Below, piece by piece: positions 1,698-47,180 of a stretch of 64,000 nucleotides of DNA; the first letter of the stretch is position 1, and every line of letters begins with the position of its first letter. The DNA comes from Candidatus Binatia bacterium. GTDB lineage: Bacteria; Desulfobacterota; Binatia; Bin18. The DNA lies in NCBI GenBank assembly GCA_963422435.1, contig OY729511.1:549420-613419 (forward strand), read 5' to 3'. Position numbers and translations under genes: made by a program. Below the pieces are notes generated by a model. The model saw only the letters and a list, made by a program, of their open reading frames with translations, did no database searches and was not told the origin of the DNA.

Positions 1698-2807
1698 ATG
1701 GCAAAGCTACGCGTGATCTCGGCAGACTCGCACATGATGGAGCCAGCCGATCTGTGGCAGCAACGTTTGGACAACAAATTCCGTGACCAAGCGCCAAAAG
1801 TGGTCGAAAACCCGAAGAATCCGGGCTTCATCTTTGTGGCGGATGGCATCGCCCCCTTTCCTGTTGCCGGCGGGTTCGGAGCCGGACGGTCTGGAGAAGA
1901 GTTGAAAGACCATATGAGCAAGGGCTATGAAGCCGCCCGGCCGAGTGGCTGGGACCCGATTGAGCGCATCAAAGACCAGGAGATCGACGGAGTCGAAGCC
2001 GAGGTGCTCTACACTACGTTGGGCATGCCGCTCTTCGGGCTGCCGAATGCCGACCTGCAGCGGGCCTGCTTCCGCGCCTATAACGACTGGGTCGCGGAGT
2101 TCTGTTCGCATAACCCCAAACGCTTGTACGGCATCAGCTTGATCTCCCTCGAAGATATTGATGCGGGCGTCAAAGAGTTGGAGCGGACGCATAAGCAGGG
2201 GATGCGCGGTGCCATGATCTGGGGTTCGCCACCGGAAGACAAGCCGTATAGCAGCCACGCGTATAATCCCTTTTGGCAGGCCGCCGCGGAACTCCATATG
2301 CCGCTCTCACTCCACGTGATTACCGGCAAGAGTAAGGAGAGCAAGGTCGATTTTTCGCAGATCAGCCTGTTCTATATGAATGTGATCCACGAAGTGCAAC
2401 GTTCCCTGTCCACCCTCGTGTTTGGTGGCGTATTGGAACGGTTTCCCGAACTGAAAATTGTTTCCGCCGAAAATGACACGGGCTGGTTCCCGCACTTCAT
2501 GTATCGTATGGACCATGCCTACGATAAATTCCACGCTATGGAAAAAGAGCCCCTGCCGATGAAGCCGAGCGAATATGTCCGGCGGCAGATATGGGCGACC
2601 TTCCAGGACGACCCGGTCGGTCCGGCGACCTATAAGATCTTTGGCGAGGACAATTACATGTGGGCGTCCGACTTCCCGCATACCGACTCAACCTGGCCGG
2701 AATCCCGGCAGTGGATCAAGAAGGACTTCAACGGCGTGCCGGAAGACATCACCCGCAAGATCGTCTTTGAGAATGCGGTCAAGGCATACCGGATGGACCT
2801 GGACTAG
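1698..2807 (+). CDS. Amidohydrolase family 2 protein
   Basis: ISADSH metal motif, LYTT, SLHVITG and WASDFPH; GAGG RBS. Confidence 0.9.
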   Translation: MAKLRVISADSHMMEPADLWQQRLDNKFRDQAPKVVENPKNPGFIFVADGIAPFPVAGGFGAGRSGEELKDHMSKGYEAARPSGWDPIERIKDQEIDGVEAEVLYTTLGMPLFGLPNADLQRACFRAYNDWVAEFCSHNPKRLYGISLISLEDIDAGVKELERTHKQGMRGAMIWGSPPEDKPYSSHAYNPFWQAAAELHMPLSLHVITGKSKESKVDFSQISLFYMNVIHEVQRSLSTLVFGGVLERFPELKIVSAENDTGWFPHFMYRMDHAYDKFHAMEKEPLPMKPSEYVRRQIWATFQDDPVGPATYKIFGEDNYMWASDFPHTDSTWPESRQWIKKDFNGVPEDITRKIVFENAVKAYRMDLD

Positions 2808-33576: not shown

Positions 33577-33610
33577 CCCTCTCCCCGTGGGAGAGGGCCA
33601 AGGTAAGGGC
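33577..33610. repeat. G/C-rich palindromic repeat, copy B
   Basis: CCCTCTCCCCGTGGGAGAGGGCCAAGGTAAGGGC. Confidence 0.65.
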
Positions 33611-34140: not shown

Positions 34141-35298
34141 CTACAGACCGTAAACCTGCGCCGCGTTCTGGCCGATGACCTTCTGCCGCGTGGTGTCGGA
34201 CATGGGATCAACCAGGTCGGCCAGCTCGGTCATATAGTTGTCCGGATGGTCGGGGTGCGGAAAGTCCGAGGCCCAGAAGAATTTGTCGGCACCCACGAAG
34301 TCCACCACATGACCAAAGGCTTTTTCGTCTGGGTCGCCGGAAATCCAGCAGTTGCGATAAAAATAATAGCTAGGCTTTTCTTTGAGCTTGACGGTATCGC
34401 CCAGAGGGCTGTCAAACACCGCGTCCATGCGGTTGAGCAGATAGCCGGCCCAGCCCGCACCCGATTCCAGCACGACCACTTTAATCTTGGGGAAACGCTC
34501 AAACAGGCCGTACTGGAACATCGCCGTAAAGGCCTGCAGCGGTCCCTGCGCACCGTGCACATTGTAATGCCACAGCGCCCACTTCTGCATATCCTTGAAG
34601 CGTTGGTGCACCCGCTTGGCTGGTGGCTCACCACTCGGGTGGATACCGACCGGGACGTCCAACTCCTGGGCCTTTGCCCAGAACGGGTCGTAGTCCGGAT
34701 GGGCGTGAGATGTATTGGTTGGCGTAAACGGCACGAAGAACGCGCCCTTGGCTCCGGCGCGCACCGCCCGCTCCAATTCCTGAGCCGCCACATTCCCATC
34801 CCCCATTGAGATATGGGCAATCGGAATCAGCCGGCCGTCGGAATCGGAACAGAAATCGACCACCCAGCGATTATACGCCTCGGCGTAGGCCGCCTGGAGT
34901 TCAAGGCTCTCCACCTCTTCGGTTTCCCATAAGAGGCCGATGCTCGGGTAGATAATGGCCTTCTCCAAGCCCTCTCGATCCATGCGTACCAGCCGCTCTT
35001 TGGGATACATCGAGCCAAAGGGTGCCTCGCCAACATAGGTCCGGTCCGGGTGGGGGGCGGTTTCTTCTTCCGATTTTTTTCCCATCGCCCCGAACTGGGC
35101 CAATTGCCCCGGCTGGGAATACTTCGCGGGTCGTCCATCCAGTTCCAGGACCTCAAGCCCGTCCTCATTGGTCCGTAGGCGGATGGCCCGGTCCTTATAT
35201 CTCGGATCAATATACTTCTCCCAGGTATCGGGCGGCTCAAGGATGTGTCCGTCGGCATCAACCGCCCCGCTATAGGGAAACTGTCCGTTTGCGGCCAT
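34141..35298 (-). CDS. Amidohydrolase family 2 protein
   Basis: VDADGHILEP, IYPS and WASDFPHPD. Confidence 0.9.
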   Translation of the reverse strand: MAANGQFPYSGAVDADGHILEPPDTWEKYIDPRYKDRAIRLRTNEDGLEVLELDGRPAKYSQPGQLAQFGAMGKKSEEETAPHPDRTYVGEAPFGSMYPKERLVRMDREGLEKAIIYPSIGLLWETEEVESLELQAAYAEAYNRWVVDFCSDSDGRLIPIAHISMGDGNVAAQELERAVRAGAKGAFFVPFTPTNTSHAHPDYDPFWAKAQELDVPVGIHPSGEPPAKRVHQRFKDMQKWALWHYNVHGAQGPLQAFTAMFQYGLFERFPKIKVVVLESGAGWAGYLLNRMDAVFDSPLGDTVKLKEKPSYYFYRNCWISGDPDEKAFGHVVDFVGADKFFWASDFPHPDHPDNYMTELADLVDPMSDTTRQKVIGQNAAQVYGL

Positions 35299-35371
35299 TC
35301 TGCATTCCCTCCGTTTTTCTCTGTTGTGAATTGAAACGTGAAAGTATCACTTCTAACCTACACGGTTTGTT

Positions 35372-35562
35372 CGGGCAAGAGTTTGGAAACTCCGGTAGTG
35401 TCTCCGTTTCACATCTCCCTTTCCCGCTGCCGGCGCAACGCCCCCCCCTGGCCCTCCCCCTCAGCGGGGGGAGGAGAAAATGAATAAACGTGCCGACATC
35501 CGCCTGTCTGTTGAGGGCGCGTTTATTCATTAAAGGCAGACACTACCGGAACTCTTGGCCCG
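35372..35562. other. Nested inverted-repeat element (MITE-like or structured ncRNA)
   Basis: 13-bp IR 35391-35403/35538-35550, 7-bp IR 35376-35382/35551-35557, inner 12-bp IR 35479-35490/35520-35531 and a G/C hairpin 35441-35474. Confidence 0.7.
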
Positions 35563-35624
35563 GCTGCTGTGTCTCATCCCCTCCCCTTCAGGGAAGAGAG
35601 TCTTAATCAGTGCCCGGCAGATCG

Positions 35625-36683
35625 TTATCCGCACGCCAGGGTATAGACGTTCTGACATCCGTCCGGCAGCGCGGACTCGCCCCAGGTCGTGCCGCCGTCT
35701 TGAGTACCGAACACTTGGCCCTCCCGCGTGCCACAGTACACGAGCTGCGGGTCCTGGCGGCTGAGAGCGACGGTCATCATCGTACTCCGGGGGGTGATAC
35801 CCCGGTCAAAGCGCCGCCAGGTCTGACCCAGGTCCAGGCTGCGATAAACGGAGCCATTCAGGGTGAGCGCCCCCGGACTCAGCGCCGCGTAGAGCGTATT
35901 CGGGTCACCGGGAGCGACCTGGATATCGCGCGCGTAGGTCAACGGCGAAGAACGCCAGATTTCCATATCCGCCCAGGATTGTCCCTGATCCGGGCTGTGG
36001 AACAGGCCCATGCGTGTGGCCAGAAAGACGCTGCCCGGCTGGGCGGCGCTCAGCACCACGGCGTGCGTGTCCATCATGCCTTCGGCATCGGTCTTGCTCA
36101 GAATACGACTCTGCAAATAATCCTGCTCGGCAAACCGCAGCAGTGCGGCGCTACAGTCCTCCCAGGAGTCGCCCCCGTCCCGACTGCGAATGACTCCGCC
36201 GACCTCCAGGCCGGCATACACCGCCTCCGGGTCGTTCGGGTCAGCCGCCATGCCGATAATGCGGCACGGAAAACCCATTTCAACCATGCCGGCCGGCGCG
36301 GCAAAGGTCAGCCGTTTCCAGCTATCGCCGCCGTTATCGCTGCGATAGATGGCCGCCGGTGCGGTGCCGCAATACACGACCTGGGGATCGTTCGGGCGAA
36401 ACAGCAGCGACCAGACCGGCATCCCGGCATCTGGAAAATCCAACCCTTCCCAGTGCGCCCCGCCGTCCGTGCTGCGGTACGGCCCGTGCTGGGTGCCGAC
36501 GTACAGCAGGTGCGGATTATCGGGGTGAACAAGAATGGCCCGAATCTCGGCCTGTTCCGGGAGGCCCTGGCTTAAAATCTGCCACTCCGTTTCTCCGACT
36601 CTTTGACGACACAGGCCGCTGGACGGAGTCGTGTGTCCGTTCTTGGAAAACTGCGACGCCCCGGCGTAGACATACTGAGCCAT
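35625..36683 (-). CDS. BNR/Asp-box beta-propeller protein
   Basis: Repeated S-x-D-x-G-x-x-W boxes (STDGGAHW, SDNGGDSW, SRDGGDSW, SPDQGQSW, SLDLGQTW, TQDGGTTW). Confidence 0.9.
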   Translation of the reverse strand: MAQYVYAGASQFSKNGHTTPSSGLCRQRVGETEWQILSQGLPEQAEIRAILVHPDNPHLLYVGTQHGPYRSTDGGAHWEGLDFPDAGMPVWSLLFRPNDPQVVYCGTAPAAIYRSDNGGDSWKRLTFAAPAGMVEMGFPCRIIGMAADPNDPEAVYAGLEVGGVIRSRDGGDSWEDCSAALLRFAEQDYLQSRILSKTDAEGMMDTHAVVLSAAQPGSVFLATRMGLFHSPDQGQSWADMEIWRSSPLTYARDIQVAPGDPNTLYAALSPGALTLNGSVYRSLDLGQTWRRFDRGITPRSTMMTVALSRQDPQLVYCGTREGQVFGTQDGGTTWGESALPDGCQNVYTLACG

Positions 36684-45973: not shown

Positions 45974-46897
45974 CTATAGAGTGAATGCGACTTTACCGGC
46001 CTCACGAACCTCATAGCCCCCGAGTGAGGCCGCGCGTTCTTGTAATGCAGGTGAGGTCACGACGTCCAGCAGGGCTTGGACCGGTTTGGCAAAATACAGC
46101 GCTTTGGAAACCAGCAAATCAAACCGCTCCTCAACTATTTCGGTAAATGAGAGGCCCAACAGCTCGGCCACCGACTGGACGGCCAGCCCGACATCCGCCC
46201 GCCCTCGGAGTACGTGCAAGCCCACCTCCCAGTGCGTCCGGGCTTCGACGTCATACCCTGTGATTCGTTCCGGTTTGATCCGGGCCTGCCGGAGTTGCTG
46301 ATCGATGAACCAGCGGACCCCGGACCCAGCCTGGCGGTTCACCAGACGTTTCTTCTTACGCGGCAGTTCGGCCAGCGAGCGTATGGGCCGACTGTCGGGC
46401 CGGGCAATCAATCCGAGCCGGCGGTGCCAGAGGGTCACGGCCACCAGGTCGGGCCGGCCGGCTTGCGACACGAACGGCGCATTATACTCGCCGGTCTCAG
46501 GGTCCAGCAGATGGGCCAGCGCCACATGGGTCTTCGCTTGCTTGAGGGCTTCCAGACCACCGAAGCTGCCCAGATTGGTCGTGTAAAAGAGGTGTTCGGG
46601 GAAACGCCGCCCCGCCAGGTCAAGCAATGCATCAAGCAAGAGATCGTTGCTGCCCGCGATTAAGAGCCCCCGTTCGGGTTCAAACTGGACCGCTTCCGGG
46701 GGCACGGCGGGCGGTATCGTGGTTTGCGCCAGGGAATGCTGCTTGACCCAATCTTCCACCAGGCTTTGCGGAAACAGCCATTTGCCGGTAACGCGCGTAC
46801 ACGGAATCGTGCCGTTTCGGATCAAACGGTAGACCTGCTTTTCGTTGATATGCAGATACGCCGCAACTTCGCGCGTACTCAGCAGGGTTTCGGGCAT
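45974..46897 (-). CDS. Excisionase-type HTH plus PBP-like transcriptional regulator
   Basis: LSTREVAAYLHINEKQVYRL...GKWLF followed by AGSND, GSFGGL and NRQAGSG; first gene of the tup operon. Confidence 0.85.
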   Translation of the reverse strand: MPETLLSTREVAAYLHINEKQVYRLIRNGTIPCTRVTGKWLFPQSLVEDWVKQHSLAQTTIPPAVPPEAVQFEPERGLLIAGSNDLLLDALLDLAGRRFPEHLFYTTNLGSFGGLEALKQAKTHVALAHLLDPETGEYNAPFVSQAGRPDLVAVTLWHRRLGLIARPDSRPIRSLAELPRKKKRLVNRQAGSGVRWFIDQQLRQARIKPERITGYDVEARTHWEVGLHVLRGRADVGLAVQSVAELLGLSFTEIVEERFDLLVSKALYFAKPVQALLDVVTSPALQERAASLGGYEVREAGKVAFTL

Positions 46898-46954: not shown

Positions 46955-46971
46955 ATACAGACTAGATTCAG

Positions 46972-47112
46972 GCGTGTCTCAGATTCAAATCTTCCTGCAC
47001 CTCTGCCGGCGTAACATCCCCCTCTCCCGCCAGGAGAGAGGGGAAGATCAGAGCCCTTCTCTCAGGGGGCGAGGGGGGAGAGCCACCTGTTGATTTCAGA
47101 CTACGACACTAG
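46972..47112. mobile_element. Degenerate MITE-like element carrying a G/C hairpin
   Basis: GTGTCTCAGATTCAAATC (46974-46991) versus GATTTCAGACTACGACAC-TA (47092-47111), 13/18 complementary; hairpin at 47017-47044. Confidence 0.45.
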
Positions 47113-47180
47113 CCTGTATGCTGACGCTCCTTGTCTCTCCCTCCGGTCTCTGAACACGTCTCATCCAGCGGTCCTGGCGC

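What the first reader, a model, noticed from the sequence alone, without database searches (positions are those of the whole stretch)
35372..35562. ~190-nt nested inverted-repeat element: Russian-doll MITE or unannotated structured RNA
Seen: this intergenic stretch folds into a multi-stem structure. There is a perfect 13-bp stem TCCGGTAGTGTCT/AGACACTACCGGA (35391-35403/35538-35550), extended outward by CAAGAGT/ACTCTTG and CGGG/CCCG. It encloses a G/C hairpin (35441-35474) and a 16-bp hairpin AATGAATAAACGTGCC/GGCGCGTTTATTCATT with one G-U pair (35479-35531). TA sits at 35396 and 35544, and removing the interior leaves the palindrome TCCGG-TA-CCGGA. Knowledge: IS630/Tc1-type elements insert at TA and duplicate it, and 6S-like RNAs are about this length. 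Inference: either a non-autonomous TA-targeting element inserted into a pre-existing hairpin, or a functional RNA upstream of the 34141-35298 amidohydrolase.
Basis: partly seen in the sequence, partly recalled or inferred. Interest (0 to 1): 0.72.

Follow-up and report, generated by a model that had tools for sequence, protein, structure and literature searches.

The report
Decayed IS1-family miniature transposon (MITE)
The nested hairpin is a worn-out 154-bp non-autonomous transposon (MITE) from a widespread IS1-family insertion-sequence lineage, inserted with an 8-bp target duplication into a small hairpin between two genes; it is ordinary mobile-DNA debris, not a structured RNA.

Summary
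It is a MITE sitting in a pre-existing host hairpin, but it is not a TA-duplicating IS630/Tc1 element and not a functional RNA.

The element proper is 35394-35547 (154 bp). Its ends are GGTAGTGTCT.. / ..AGACACTACC, flanked by a decayed 8-bp target duplication (GAAACTCC / GGAACTCT, 6/8).

The same termini bound 183 distinct 136-166-bp elements in MAGs labelled as Bacteroidota, Binatia, Acidobacteriota, Nitrospirota, Planctomycetes, Proteobacteria and others. Of 178 with both flanks, 98 have a perfect 8-bp duplication and 34 have 7/8; no other length fits.

The same 20-bp ends with 8-bp duplications also bound 1.3-4.4-kb elements. These encode a ~290-aa single-ORF transposase that passes Pfam's IS1 threshold and is annotated 'IS1 family transposase' in cultured bacteria. 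Its stop codon lies inside the right end.

A 95%-identical syntenic locus lacks the insertion. A second, more decayed copy lies at 46970-47113. Rfam and covariation give no support for an RNA.

Verdict: a new member of a known kind, of low interest.

The parts
35394..35547 (.). The MITE proper (154 bp), from GGTAGTGTCT... to ...AGACACTACC
   Evidence: The same termini and size class (136-166 bp) occur in 183 distinct elements. The boundaries are fixed by the family-wide 8-bp duplication. The element is absent from the syntenic locus L003.
35394..35412 (+). Left terminal inverted repeat, GGTAGTGTCTCCGTTTCAC (3 mismatches to the family consensus GGTAGTGTCTCAGTTTGAA)
35529..35547 (-). Right terminal inverted repeat; reverse complement GGTAGTGTCTGCCTTTAAT (5 mismatches to the consensus)
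35386..35393 (.). Left copy of the 8-bp target-site duplication, GAAACTCC
   Evidence: Matches the right copy at 6/8. The family norm is 8 bp.
35548..35555 (.). Right copy of the 8-bp target-site duplication, GGAACTCT
35372..35383 (.). Host sequence: 5' arm of the pre-existing inverted repeat (CGGGCAAGAGTT). It is conserved in L003 right up to the insertion point.
   Evidence: (I5)
35550..35562 (.). 3' arm of the pre-existing host inverted repeat (AACTCTTGGCCCG). Its first 6 nt lie within the right duplication copy.
   Evidence: (I5)
35413..35478 (.). Subterminal region plus G/C-rich hairpin module, shared with MITE copies from Binatia MAGs (L034, L052, L055, L056, L068) and with the second window copy
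   Evidence: alignments A2 and A3
35479..35531 (.). A/T-rich 16-bp hairpin. It is specific to this copy and replaces the second G/C hairpin of the subfamily.
   Evidence: I2; no match in any of the fetched loci except the identical copy L002; A3
35480..35533 (+). 17-codon ORF MNKRADIRLSVEGAFIH* behind a GGAGGAG run. It is judged fortuitous: its start and stop codons are simply the two arms of the hairpin, it is antisense to both neighbouring genes, and it is not conserved.
46970..47113 (.). Second, more decayed copy of the same MITE subfamily (144 bp; ends with 5 and 4 mismatches; flanks CTAGATTC / CTGTATGC, 5/8), intergenic

Best explanation
The region is a non-autonomous miniature inverted-repeat transposable element (MITE). 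It derives from a widespread single-ORF clade of the IS1 family.

How it works. The 13-bp 'perfect stem' is the pair of terminal inverted repeats, which are the presumed binding sites of the transposase. An IS1-family DDE transposase supplied in trans by a full-length element would bind these ~20-bp ends. It would then join them to target DNA cut with an 8-bp stagger, and gap repair would produce the 8-bp flanking duplication.

This copy landed in the loop and 3' arm of a small host hairpin. That hairpin lies in the spacer between the BNR-repeat gene and the amidohydrolase gene, about 88 bp upstream of the amidohydrolase start and just outside the block conserved with the relative L003. This explains why host arms extend the stem outward.

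The copy has since decayed: 3 and 5 mismatches in its two ends, 6/8 in the duplication, and one half diverged into an A/T-rich hairpin. It is probably no longer mobile and has no demonstrated function.

Shown: the family, its ends, the 8-bp duplication, absence of the insertion in a relative, the cognate transposase gene and its IS1 affiliation. Inferred: trans-mobilisation, the cut-and-repair mechanism, present immobility and neutrality.
For: 1. Family. The pattern GGTAGTGTCTNNNTTT-N(104-134)-AAANNNAGACACTACC (26 fixed bases; I estimate about 0.004 chance matches) found 85 loci in reference genomes and at least 120 in metagenomes. These give 183 distinct elements of 136-166 bp.
2. Duplication. 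It is perfect at 8 bp in 98/178 copies and 7/8 in 34. There are 0-1 perfect matches at 6, 7, 9 or 10 bp.
3. Only the ~20 terminal nt are conserved. The interiors fall into 89 clusters, many confined to one MAG or lineage.
4. The left ~85 nt of the window copy aligns with copies from Binatia MAGs, and the flanking amidohydrolase's named homologs are from Binatia.
5. Insertion polymorphism. L003 (95% aa-identical amidohydrolase, same DUF1302-HisRS-BNR-amidohydrolase order) has a 115-bp spacer against 326 bp here. Homology breaks at the element's left boundary and resumes right after it. L005 also lacks the element.
6. Cognate elements. The same ends with perfect 8-bp duplications bound elements of 277 bp to 3.8 kb. 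Thirteen of those between 1.3 and 3.4 kb carry a 289-337-aa ORF that ends within a few bases of one element end, and transposase homologs were found in about 30 of the viral loci. Five of the seven transposases read out end in ...ISN*, with the TGA stop inside the right repeat.
7. That ORF hits Pfam DDE_Tnp_IS1 at 29-37 bits (threshold 24.1). NCBIfam transpos_IS1 is its best match. PGAP names plasmid homologs 'IS1 family transposase'. One, in cultured Acidiphilium multivorum, sits in a 2634-bp element with these ends and the duplication AAGCCGAG.
8. In reference genomes at least 592 loci encode the transposase. All 80 retrieved carry the repeat motif, and 64 are complete elements with at least 7/8 duplications, including one in a Binatia MAG (L377).
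9. E. coli IS1A shows the same architecture: ends GGTGATGCTGCC / GGTAATGACTCC, an 8-bp duplication and a stop codon inside the right end.
10. Deletion origin. Short derivatives retain transposase C-terminal coding remnants (L240, L252, L328; the 155-bp L062 copy).
Against: - No full-length partner is present in the 64-kb window, and the rest of this genome could not be searched.
- The duplication here is only 6/8.
- L003 is not a base-perfect empty site: it also lacks about 9 nt around the target.
- The transposase scores below NCBIfam's strict IS1 cut-off (59-78 bits against 100). It is only weakly similar to E. coli InsB (E = 4e-5 over 40 aa), so it is a distant IS1-family branch.
- Mobilisation in trans has not been tested.
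Confidence: 0.93

Rival explanations
1. A structured non-coding RNA or cis-regulatory leader (6S-like RNA, riboswitch or attenuator) for the amidohydrolase gene.
For: The predicted fold is very stable on both strands. On the - strand the element lies in the spacer upstream of the amidohydrolase gene.
Against: - No Rfam family reaches threshold in the whole window, and the relaxed scan gives only noise (E at least 0.5).
- The stem is the sequence-conserved transposon end, found at hundreds of unrelated genomic sites, each with its own 8-bp duplication.
- The interior is not conserved.
- RNAalifold on the Binatia subfamily gives an unfavourable covariation term (+4.3), and the window copies are the ones that break pairs.
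- The 95%-identical ortholog does without the element.
Confidence: 0.02
2. A TA-targeting IS630/Tc1-mariner-type MITE, with TA duplicated at 35396 and 35544.
For: TA occurs symmetrically near both ends, and excising between the two TAs leaves a palindrome.
Against: - The TA is invariant because it is part of the terminal repeat GGTAGTG in all copies.
- Flanks match at 8 bp, not 2 bp.
- Full-length elements with these ends encode an IS1-type transposase, with no IS630/Tc1 hit.
Confidence: 0.01
3. A MITE that the host has co-opted. If the BNR and amidohydrolase genes are co-transcribed, its long hairpin could act as a transcription barrier or attenuator, or as an mRNA-stabilising or RNase-processing structure between them.
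For: Position between two same-strand genes. Very stable hairpin. From general knowledge, not tested here: other bacterial MITEs (Correia, ERIC, RUP) are known to affect mRNA processing and stability.
Against: - No terminator-like or promoter-like site is detected.
- The copy is decaying rather than conserved.
- Close relatives lack it.
- No expression data are available.
Confidence: 0.08

Closest known systems
IS1 family insertion sequences (prototype E. coli IS1; single-ORF, cargo-carrying members such as the ISMhu11 subgroup listed in ISfinder, the latter recalled from memory)
   Same: - Ends of the form GGnnnTG: GGTAGTG here, GGTGATG / GGTAATG in IS1A.
- An 8-bp target duplication.
- The transposase stop codon lies inside the right end.
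- A DDE_Tnp_IS1 domain.
- The duplicated 8-mers are enriched for G/C at both ends, and A/T dominates inner positions 2 and 4-7. As I recall, this matches the target preference reported for IS1.
   Different: - The window element has no transposase.
- Its cognate transposase is a single ~290-aa ORF with an N-terminal helix-turn-helix. It is not the InsA/InsAB' frameshift pair with a zinc finger.
- That transposase is only distantly related to E. coli InsB.
- Nearly all full-length copies found carry 1-3.4 kb of passenger genes.
Bacterial MITEs in general (e.g. Correia elements, ERIC/MITEEc1, RUP, MITEAba12, Sulfolobus IS1-related MITEs)
   Same: Short (about 150 bp), non-coding, with terminal inverted repeats identical to those of a full-length IS. 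Also a fixed-length target duplication, many copies, intergenic location and strong hairpin potential.
   Different: This is a different terminal sequence and partner family. No paper in the held library contains GGTAGTGTCT or AGACACTACC in a transposon context. Unusually, the same 20-bp end is shared by copies in many phyla while the interiors differ widely between copies and lineages.
IS630/Tc1-mariner MITEs
   Same: MITE architecture.
   Different: The duplication is 8 bp rather than TA, and the transposase family is different.

Membership tests
MITE (non-autonomous derivative of a DDE insertion sequence) | Short (under about 300 bp) with no transposase gene | tested here: met
   154 bp. 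The only ORF wholly inside is a fortuitous 17-codon one. No transposase similarity in the window.
MITE (non-autonomous derivative of a DDE insertion sequence) | Terminal inverted repeats identical or near-identical to those of a full-length autonomous element | tested here: met
   GGTAGTGTCTC.GTTT... is shared with 1.3-4.4-kb transposase-encoding elements.
MITE (non-autonomous derivative of a DDE insertion sequence) | Target-site duplication of fixed length flanking each copy | tested here: met
   Family: perfect 8 bp in 98/178 copies, 7/8 in 34. This copy: 6/8.
MITE (non-autonomous derivative of a DDE insertion sequence) | Multiple copies at unrelated sites; presence/absence polymorphism | tested here: met
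   183 distinct copies. Several MAGs carry 3-5 exact-pattern copies. A second copy lies in this window. The element is absent from syntenic L003 and L005.
MITE (non-autonomous derivative of a DDE insertion sequence) | Mobilisation in trans by the cognate transposase | not testable with these tools
   Needs a transposition assay.
IS1 family (for the cognate autonomous elements) | Transposase with an IS1-type DDE catalytic domain | tested here: met
   Pfam PF03400 at 29-37 bits, threshold 24.1. NCBIfam transpos_IS1 is the best hit but falls below its equivalog cut-off (59-78 against 100). PGAP names homologs 'IS1 family transposase'.
IS1 family (for the cognate autonomous elements) | Ends of the form GGnnnTG and an 8-9-bp target duplication (ISfinder family description, recalled; checked against E. 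coli IS1A) | tested here: met
   GGTAGTG with 8 bp here. IS1A: GGTGATG / GGTAATG, with 8 bp at that copy.
IS1 family (for the cognate autonomous elements) | Two overlapping ORFs (insA, insB') joined by a programmed -1 frameshift, as in classical IS1 | tested here: not met
   A single ~290-aa ORF. This fits the single-ORF branch of the family rather than classical IS1.
IS630/Tc1-mariner | TA target duplicated on insertion | tested here: not met
   Only 11/180 flanks match at 2 bp; the 8-bp duplication dominates.
Known structured RNA family (Rfam) | Covariance-model match at the gathering score | tested here: not met
   0 matches in the window. Best sub-threshold E = 0.52, to an unrelated miRNA model.
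Structured RNA (any) | Compensatory base changes that support the helices | tested here: not met
   The RNAalifold covariation term is +4.3, i.e. unfavourable. Matched changes in the two ends across subfamilies (e.g. CAG/CTG against TAA/TTA) are also expected for transposase-binding ends, so they would not be evidence for an RNA.

The most novel reading that the evidence does not exclude
The MITE itself is ordinary. The lineage it reveals may not have been described as such. It is a single-ORF IS1-family clade whose 20-bp ends are almost invariant across MAGs labelled as roughly ten phyla (Bacteroidota to Binatia to Planctomycetes). Its full-length copies found here almost always carry passenger genes, including a recurrent small protein with no Pfam match. 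It has also spawned many separate ~150-bp MITE subfamilies that carry G/C-rich hairpins. A bolder reading is that the hairpin cargo of these MITEs, or this particular copy, has a host-level role in transcript processing between the BNR and amidohydrolase genes.
Probability: 0.3. Interest if true: 0.4.

Novelty: new member of a known kind. Interest (0 to 1): 0.22.

Why it matters
For this window it matters mainly as annotation. The striking ~190-nt nested hairpin should be labelled as a decayed IS1-family MITE plus host hairpin arms. It should not be pursued as a riboswitch, sRNA or leader peptide.

More broadly, the terminal motif GGTAGTGTCTCAGTTTGAA with an 8-bp duplication is a simple, highly specific signature. 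It can flag hundreds of unannotated MITEs and cargo-carrying IS1-family elements in environmental genomes and in contigs labelled viral. These can mislead searches for structured RNAs, because the matched changes in the two ends mimic covariation. They can also produce spurious ORFs, and their presence in a contig is not evidence that the contig is viral.

Tried and rejected
- Rfam at gathering and relaxed thresholds: nothing.
- Sigma-70 promoter and intrinsic terminator scans of 35200-35750: none found.
Reading that hit showed that the true boundaries are GG...CC with an 8-bp duplication, which redirected the search.
- Looking for an autonomous partner among the first 213 loci by pairing distant ends and by inspecting solo ends (L077, L176): nothing. 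The partner appeared only after a single-end scan of viral contigs.
- Literature search for the terminal sequence strings returned only primer coincidences. Keyword searches found no description of this MITE. Two attempts to open the Siguier et al. 2014 IS review failed, so IS1 family features are cited from memory and checked against E. coli IS1A.
- The A/T-rich inner hairpin as a separately inserted element ('Russian doll'): no relatives in any fetched locus and no duplication around it. This remains unproven.
- The 17-codon ORF behind GGAGGAG as a leader peptide: rejected. It is antisense to both neighbours, unconserved, and a by-product of the hairpin arms (ATGAAT / ATTCAT+TAA).
- L004 (94% homolog) is not syntenic upstream, so it was not usable as an empty site.

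Full report
**1. The observation**

- The repeat finder reports the 13-bp perfect stem, which extends to 19 nt at 89% (35391-35409 / 35532-35550).
- It also reports the outer arms (35373-35383 / 35550-35560), the G/C hairpin, and the 16-bp A/T-rich hairpin with one G-T pair.
- As RNA, the 206-nt stretch folds at -94.4 kcal/mol (+ strand) and -98.5 kcal/mol (- strand). That is z = -5.9 and -5.8 against dinucleotide shuffles, and none of 200 shuffles folds as well.
- The stretch lies in a 326-bp spacer between two genes on the - strand: a BNR/sortilin-like gene (35625-36683) and an Amidohydro_2 gene (34141-35298). A histidyl-tRNA synthetase gene and a DUF1302 gene lie beyond.

**2. What the stem is**

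It was not the source genome but a low-GC Bacteroidetes MAG with a completely different interior.

In that hit the sequence GGTAGTGTCTC...GAGACACTACC is flanked by a perfect 8-bp direct repeat (GGATTTCC). This moved the element's boundaries inward by three bases: the element runs GG...CC, and TCC/GGA is target sequence.

A pattern without those three bases (GGTAGTGTCTNNNTTT-N104-134-AAANNNAGACACTACC) found much more:
- 183 distinct elements of 136-166 bp.
- They come from MAGs labelled Bacteroidota, Ignavibacteria/Chlorobiota, Binatia, Acidobacteriota, Nitrospirota, Nitrospinota, Planctomycetes (Gemmataceae, Fimbriiglobus) and alpha-, beta-, gamma- and 'delta'-Proteobacteria.
- Several MAGs have 3-5 copies even under this exact-match pattern.

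The eight bases on either side of the element are identical in 98 of 178 copies and differ at one position in 34 more. At 6, 7, 9 or 10 bp there are 0-1 perfect matches, and at 2 bp only 11 of 180.

This is the signature of DDE-transposase insertion with an 8-bp staggered cut.

**3. The window copy**

- The element proper is 35394-35547 (154 bp).
- Its flanks GAAACTCC (35386-35393) and GGAACTCT (35548-55) match at 6/8.
- Its ends carry 3 and 5 mismatches to the 19-nt consensus GGTAGTGTCTCAGTTTGAA.
- Across the family only about 20 terminal nucleotides are conserved. The interiors fall into 89 clusters, many of them confined to one MAG or lineage.
- The window's left ~85 nt, including the G/C hairpin, align well with five copies from Binatia MAGs. 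This fits the window's likely Binatia origin, since the named amidohydrolase homologs are from Binatia.
- The right half, the A/T-rich hairpin at 35479-35531, replaces the second G/C hairpin of that subfamily. It has no relative in any fetched locus.
- So the 'Russian doll' idea is neither needed nor shown. The G/C hairpin is an integral part of the subfamily, and the A/T hairpin is a copy-specific divergence of unknown origin.
- The 17-codon ORF at 35480-35533 behind GGAGGAG is a by-product of the hairpin arms. It is antisense to both neighbouring genes and is not conserved.
- A second, more decayed copy of the same subfamily lies at 46970-47113 in another spacer.

**4. Insertion polymorphism and the host hairpin**

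L002 is a contig from another sequencing run and carries the identical locus.

L003 encodes a 95%-identical amidohydrolase in the same gene order (DUF1302, HisRS, BNR, amidohydrolase). Its spacer is only 115 bp.
- Aligned to the window, homology runs from the amidohydrolase start up to ...CGGGCAAG(A/G)GTTT, which is the left boundary of the duplication.
- Homology resumes at TG(G)CC(C/G)GGCTG, immediately after the right duplication copy.
- L005 (86% identical) also lacks the element.
- L003 is not a base-perfect empty site. It also lacks about 9 nt around the target and a further ~50 nt nearer the BNR gene.

Removing the element and one duplication copy from the window gives CGGGCAAGAGTT-TGG-AACTCTTGGCCCG. 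This is a hairpin of roughly 12 bp with one bulged base.
- The outer stems (CAAGAGT / ACTCTTG and CGGG / CCCG) are host sequence.
- The 8-nt bulge is essentially the left duplication copy.

**5. The autonomous partner**

No long element was present among the first 213 loci.

A scan of viral contigs for a single 19-nt end found many contigs with two inverted ends far apart. Pairing ends that share an 8-bp duplication gave 36 elements from 277 bp to 3.8 kb, 35 of them with perfect duplications.
- Thirteen of the elements between 1.3 and 3.4 kb carry a 289-337-aa ORF that ends within a few bases of one element end. Transposase homologs were found in about 30 of the viral loci.
- Five of the seven transposases read out end in ...ISN*. 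The codons ATT TCA AAC TGA are the repeat itself, which helps explain why the end is so conserved.
- This protein hits Pfam DDE_Tnp_IS1 at 29-37 bits (threshold 24.1). NCBIfam transpos_IS1 is its best match at 59-78 bits, below the strict cut-off of 100. It has an N-terminal helix-turn-helix.
- PGAP annotates homologs on plasmids of cultured Hoeflea and Acidiphilium multivorum as 'IS1 family transposase', and the Mesorhizobium loti GenBank record carries the same name.
- The Acidiphilium copy sits in a 2634-bp element with these ends and the duplication AAGCCGAG.

In reference genomes at least 592 loci encode the protein.
- All 80 retrieved loci contain the repeat motif.
- 64 are complete elements of 2.0-4.35 kb with at least 7/8 duplications. 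One is in a Binatia MAG (L377, 2645 bp, GGATAAGT).

E. coli IS1A, read for comparison, has the ends GGTGATGCTGCC / GGTAATGACTCC, an 8-bp duplication at that copy, and its stop codon inside the right end. Its InsB aligns weakly with the new transposase around the ER.NL..R motif.

Short derivatives still encode fragments of the transposase C-terminus: 735-895-bp elements in L240, L252 and L328, and a 155-bp MITE in L062. This supports an origin by internal deletion.

**6. Mechanism**

Shown:
- the ends and the 8-bp duplication;
- absence of the insertion in a relative;
- cognate IS1-family elements with the same ends, including one in a Binatia MAG.

Inferred from what is established for DDE insertion sequences:
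- the transposase binds the ~20-bp ends;
- it inserts the element at an 8-bp staggered cut;
- the MITE is mobilised in trans.

Given its mismatched ends and degraded duplication, this copy is probably an old, inactive insertion. It sits about 88 bp upstream of the amidohydrolase start, just outside the block conserved with L003. That is consistent with a tolerated, neutral position.

**7. The RNA alternative**

- Rfam has no match at the gathering thresholds in the whole window, and only noise with relaxed settings.
- RNAalifold on the Binatia subfamily gives an unfavourable covariation term (+4.3), with the window copies breaking pairs.
- No promoter-like or terminator-like site is detected.
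- One caution applies to RNA screens. Across subfamilies the two ends change together (e.g. ...CTCAGTTT / AAACTGAG... against ...CTTAATTT / AAATTAAG...). This looks like covariation, but it is expected when both ends must be recognised by the same transposase.

A co-opted role as a barrier or processing hairpin between the two genes cannot be excluded without expression data, but nothing here points to it.

**8. Comparison and novelty**

This works like, and qualifies as, a MITE. Its partner belongs to the single-ORF branch of the IS1 family. It is not classical two-ORF IS1 and not IS630/Tc1.

I found no paper in the held library that describes this terminal sequence or MITE family. However, ISfinder and the main IS reviews could not be consulted, so 'undescribed' is uncertain.

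As a kind of thing it is well known, so it rates as a new member of a known kind and scores low. The breadth of the lineage and its cargo-carrying habit are recorded as things noticed in passing.

Noticed in passing
window 46970-47113: A second, more decayed copy of the same Binatia MITE subfamily (144 bp; ends AGGCGTGTCTCAGATTCAA / ...TTCAGACTACGACACTAGC; flanks match 5/8). It lies in the spacer after the 45974-46897 (-) ORF.
   Followed up: partly
L335-L414 (e.g. L377 1744-4388), L213-L332, L333 1267-3900: Full-length elements of this IS1-family clade almost always carry 1-3.4 kb of passenger genes; 64 of 80 are complete elements of 2.0-4.35 kb. The smallest transposase-bearing element found is 1323 bp (L233). 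The clade was found in at least 592 reference-genome loci across many phyla and in many contigs labelled viral.
   Followed up: partly
L227 2885-3118 (-), L377 about 1844-2092 (+); fused remnants in L240 2726-2935 and L252 925-1104: A recurrent small protein sits next to the non-transposase end of the elements: M(P)(R/K)GP(K/Q)G(E/Q)KRP.DV(I/V)G.AV ... (S/T)PERR(A/S)EIAK.AA..RW. It has no Pfam match. It could be an element-encoded accessory or DNA-binding protein.
   Followed up: partly
window 35563-35620: About 50 nt between the MITE and the BNR stop codon are absent from L003. They contain another G/C hairpin (35575-35600, 77% similar to the MITE-internal one) bracketed by GCCCGGCTG / GCCCGGCAG. 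This may be a remnant of an older insertion; the origin is unknown.
   Followed up: partly
window 33577-33597: A CCCTCTCCCCGTGGGAGAGGG hairpin lies between convergent genes (luciferase-like and DUF3237). It is the same kind of G/C hairpin as inside the Binatia MITEs but has no transposon ends. Such hairpins therefore also occur on their own.
   Followed up: no
L001 230-376, L166 about 1389-1479: MITE copies from Bacteroidetes-labelled MAGs carry internal hairpins of the type GTCATTCCGA...GGAATCTC. As I recall, this motif is common in Bacteroidota intergenic regions and spurious ORFs. Some of those repeats may belong to this MITE family.
   Followed up: no
L204 699-853 and 3411-3566; L126, L165, L197: Two inverted MITE copies lie 2.6 kb apart with related flanks, possibly a composite arrangement. 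Elsewhere, MITE copies are inserted next to or into one another.
   Followed up: no
98 perfect target duplications from the 183 copies: The duplicated 8-mers are enriched for G/C at positions 1 and 8 (57/98 and 71/98), and A/T dominates inner positions 2 and 4-7 (about 60-66%; position 3 is mixed). The pattern is weakly palindromic. As I recall, it resembles the target preference reported for E. coli IS1.
   Followed up: partly
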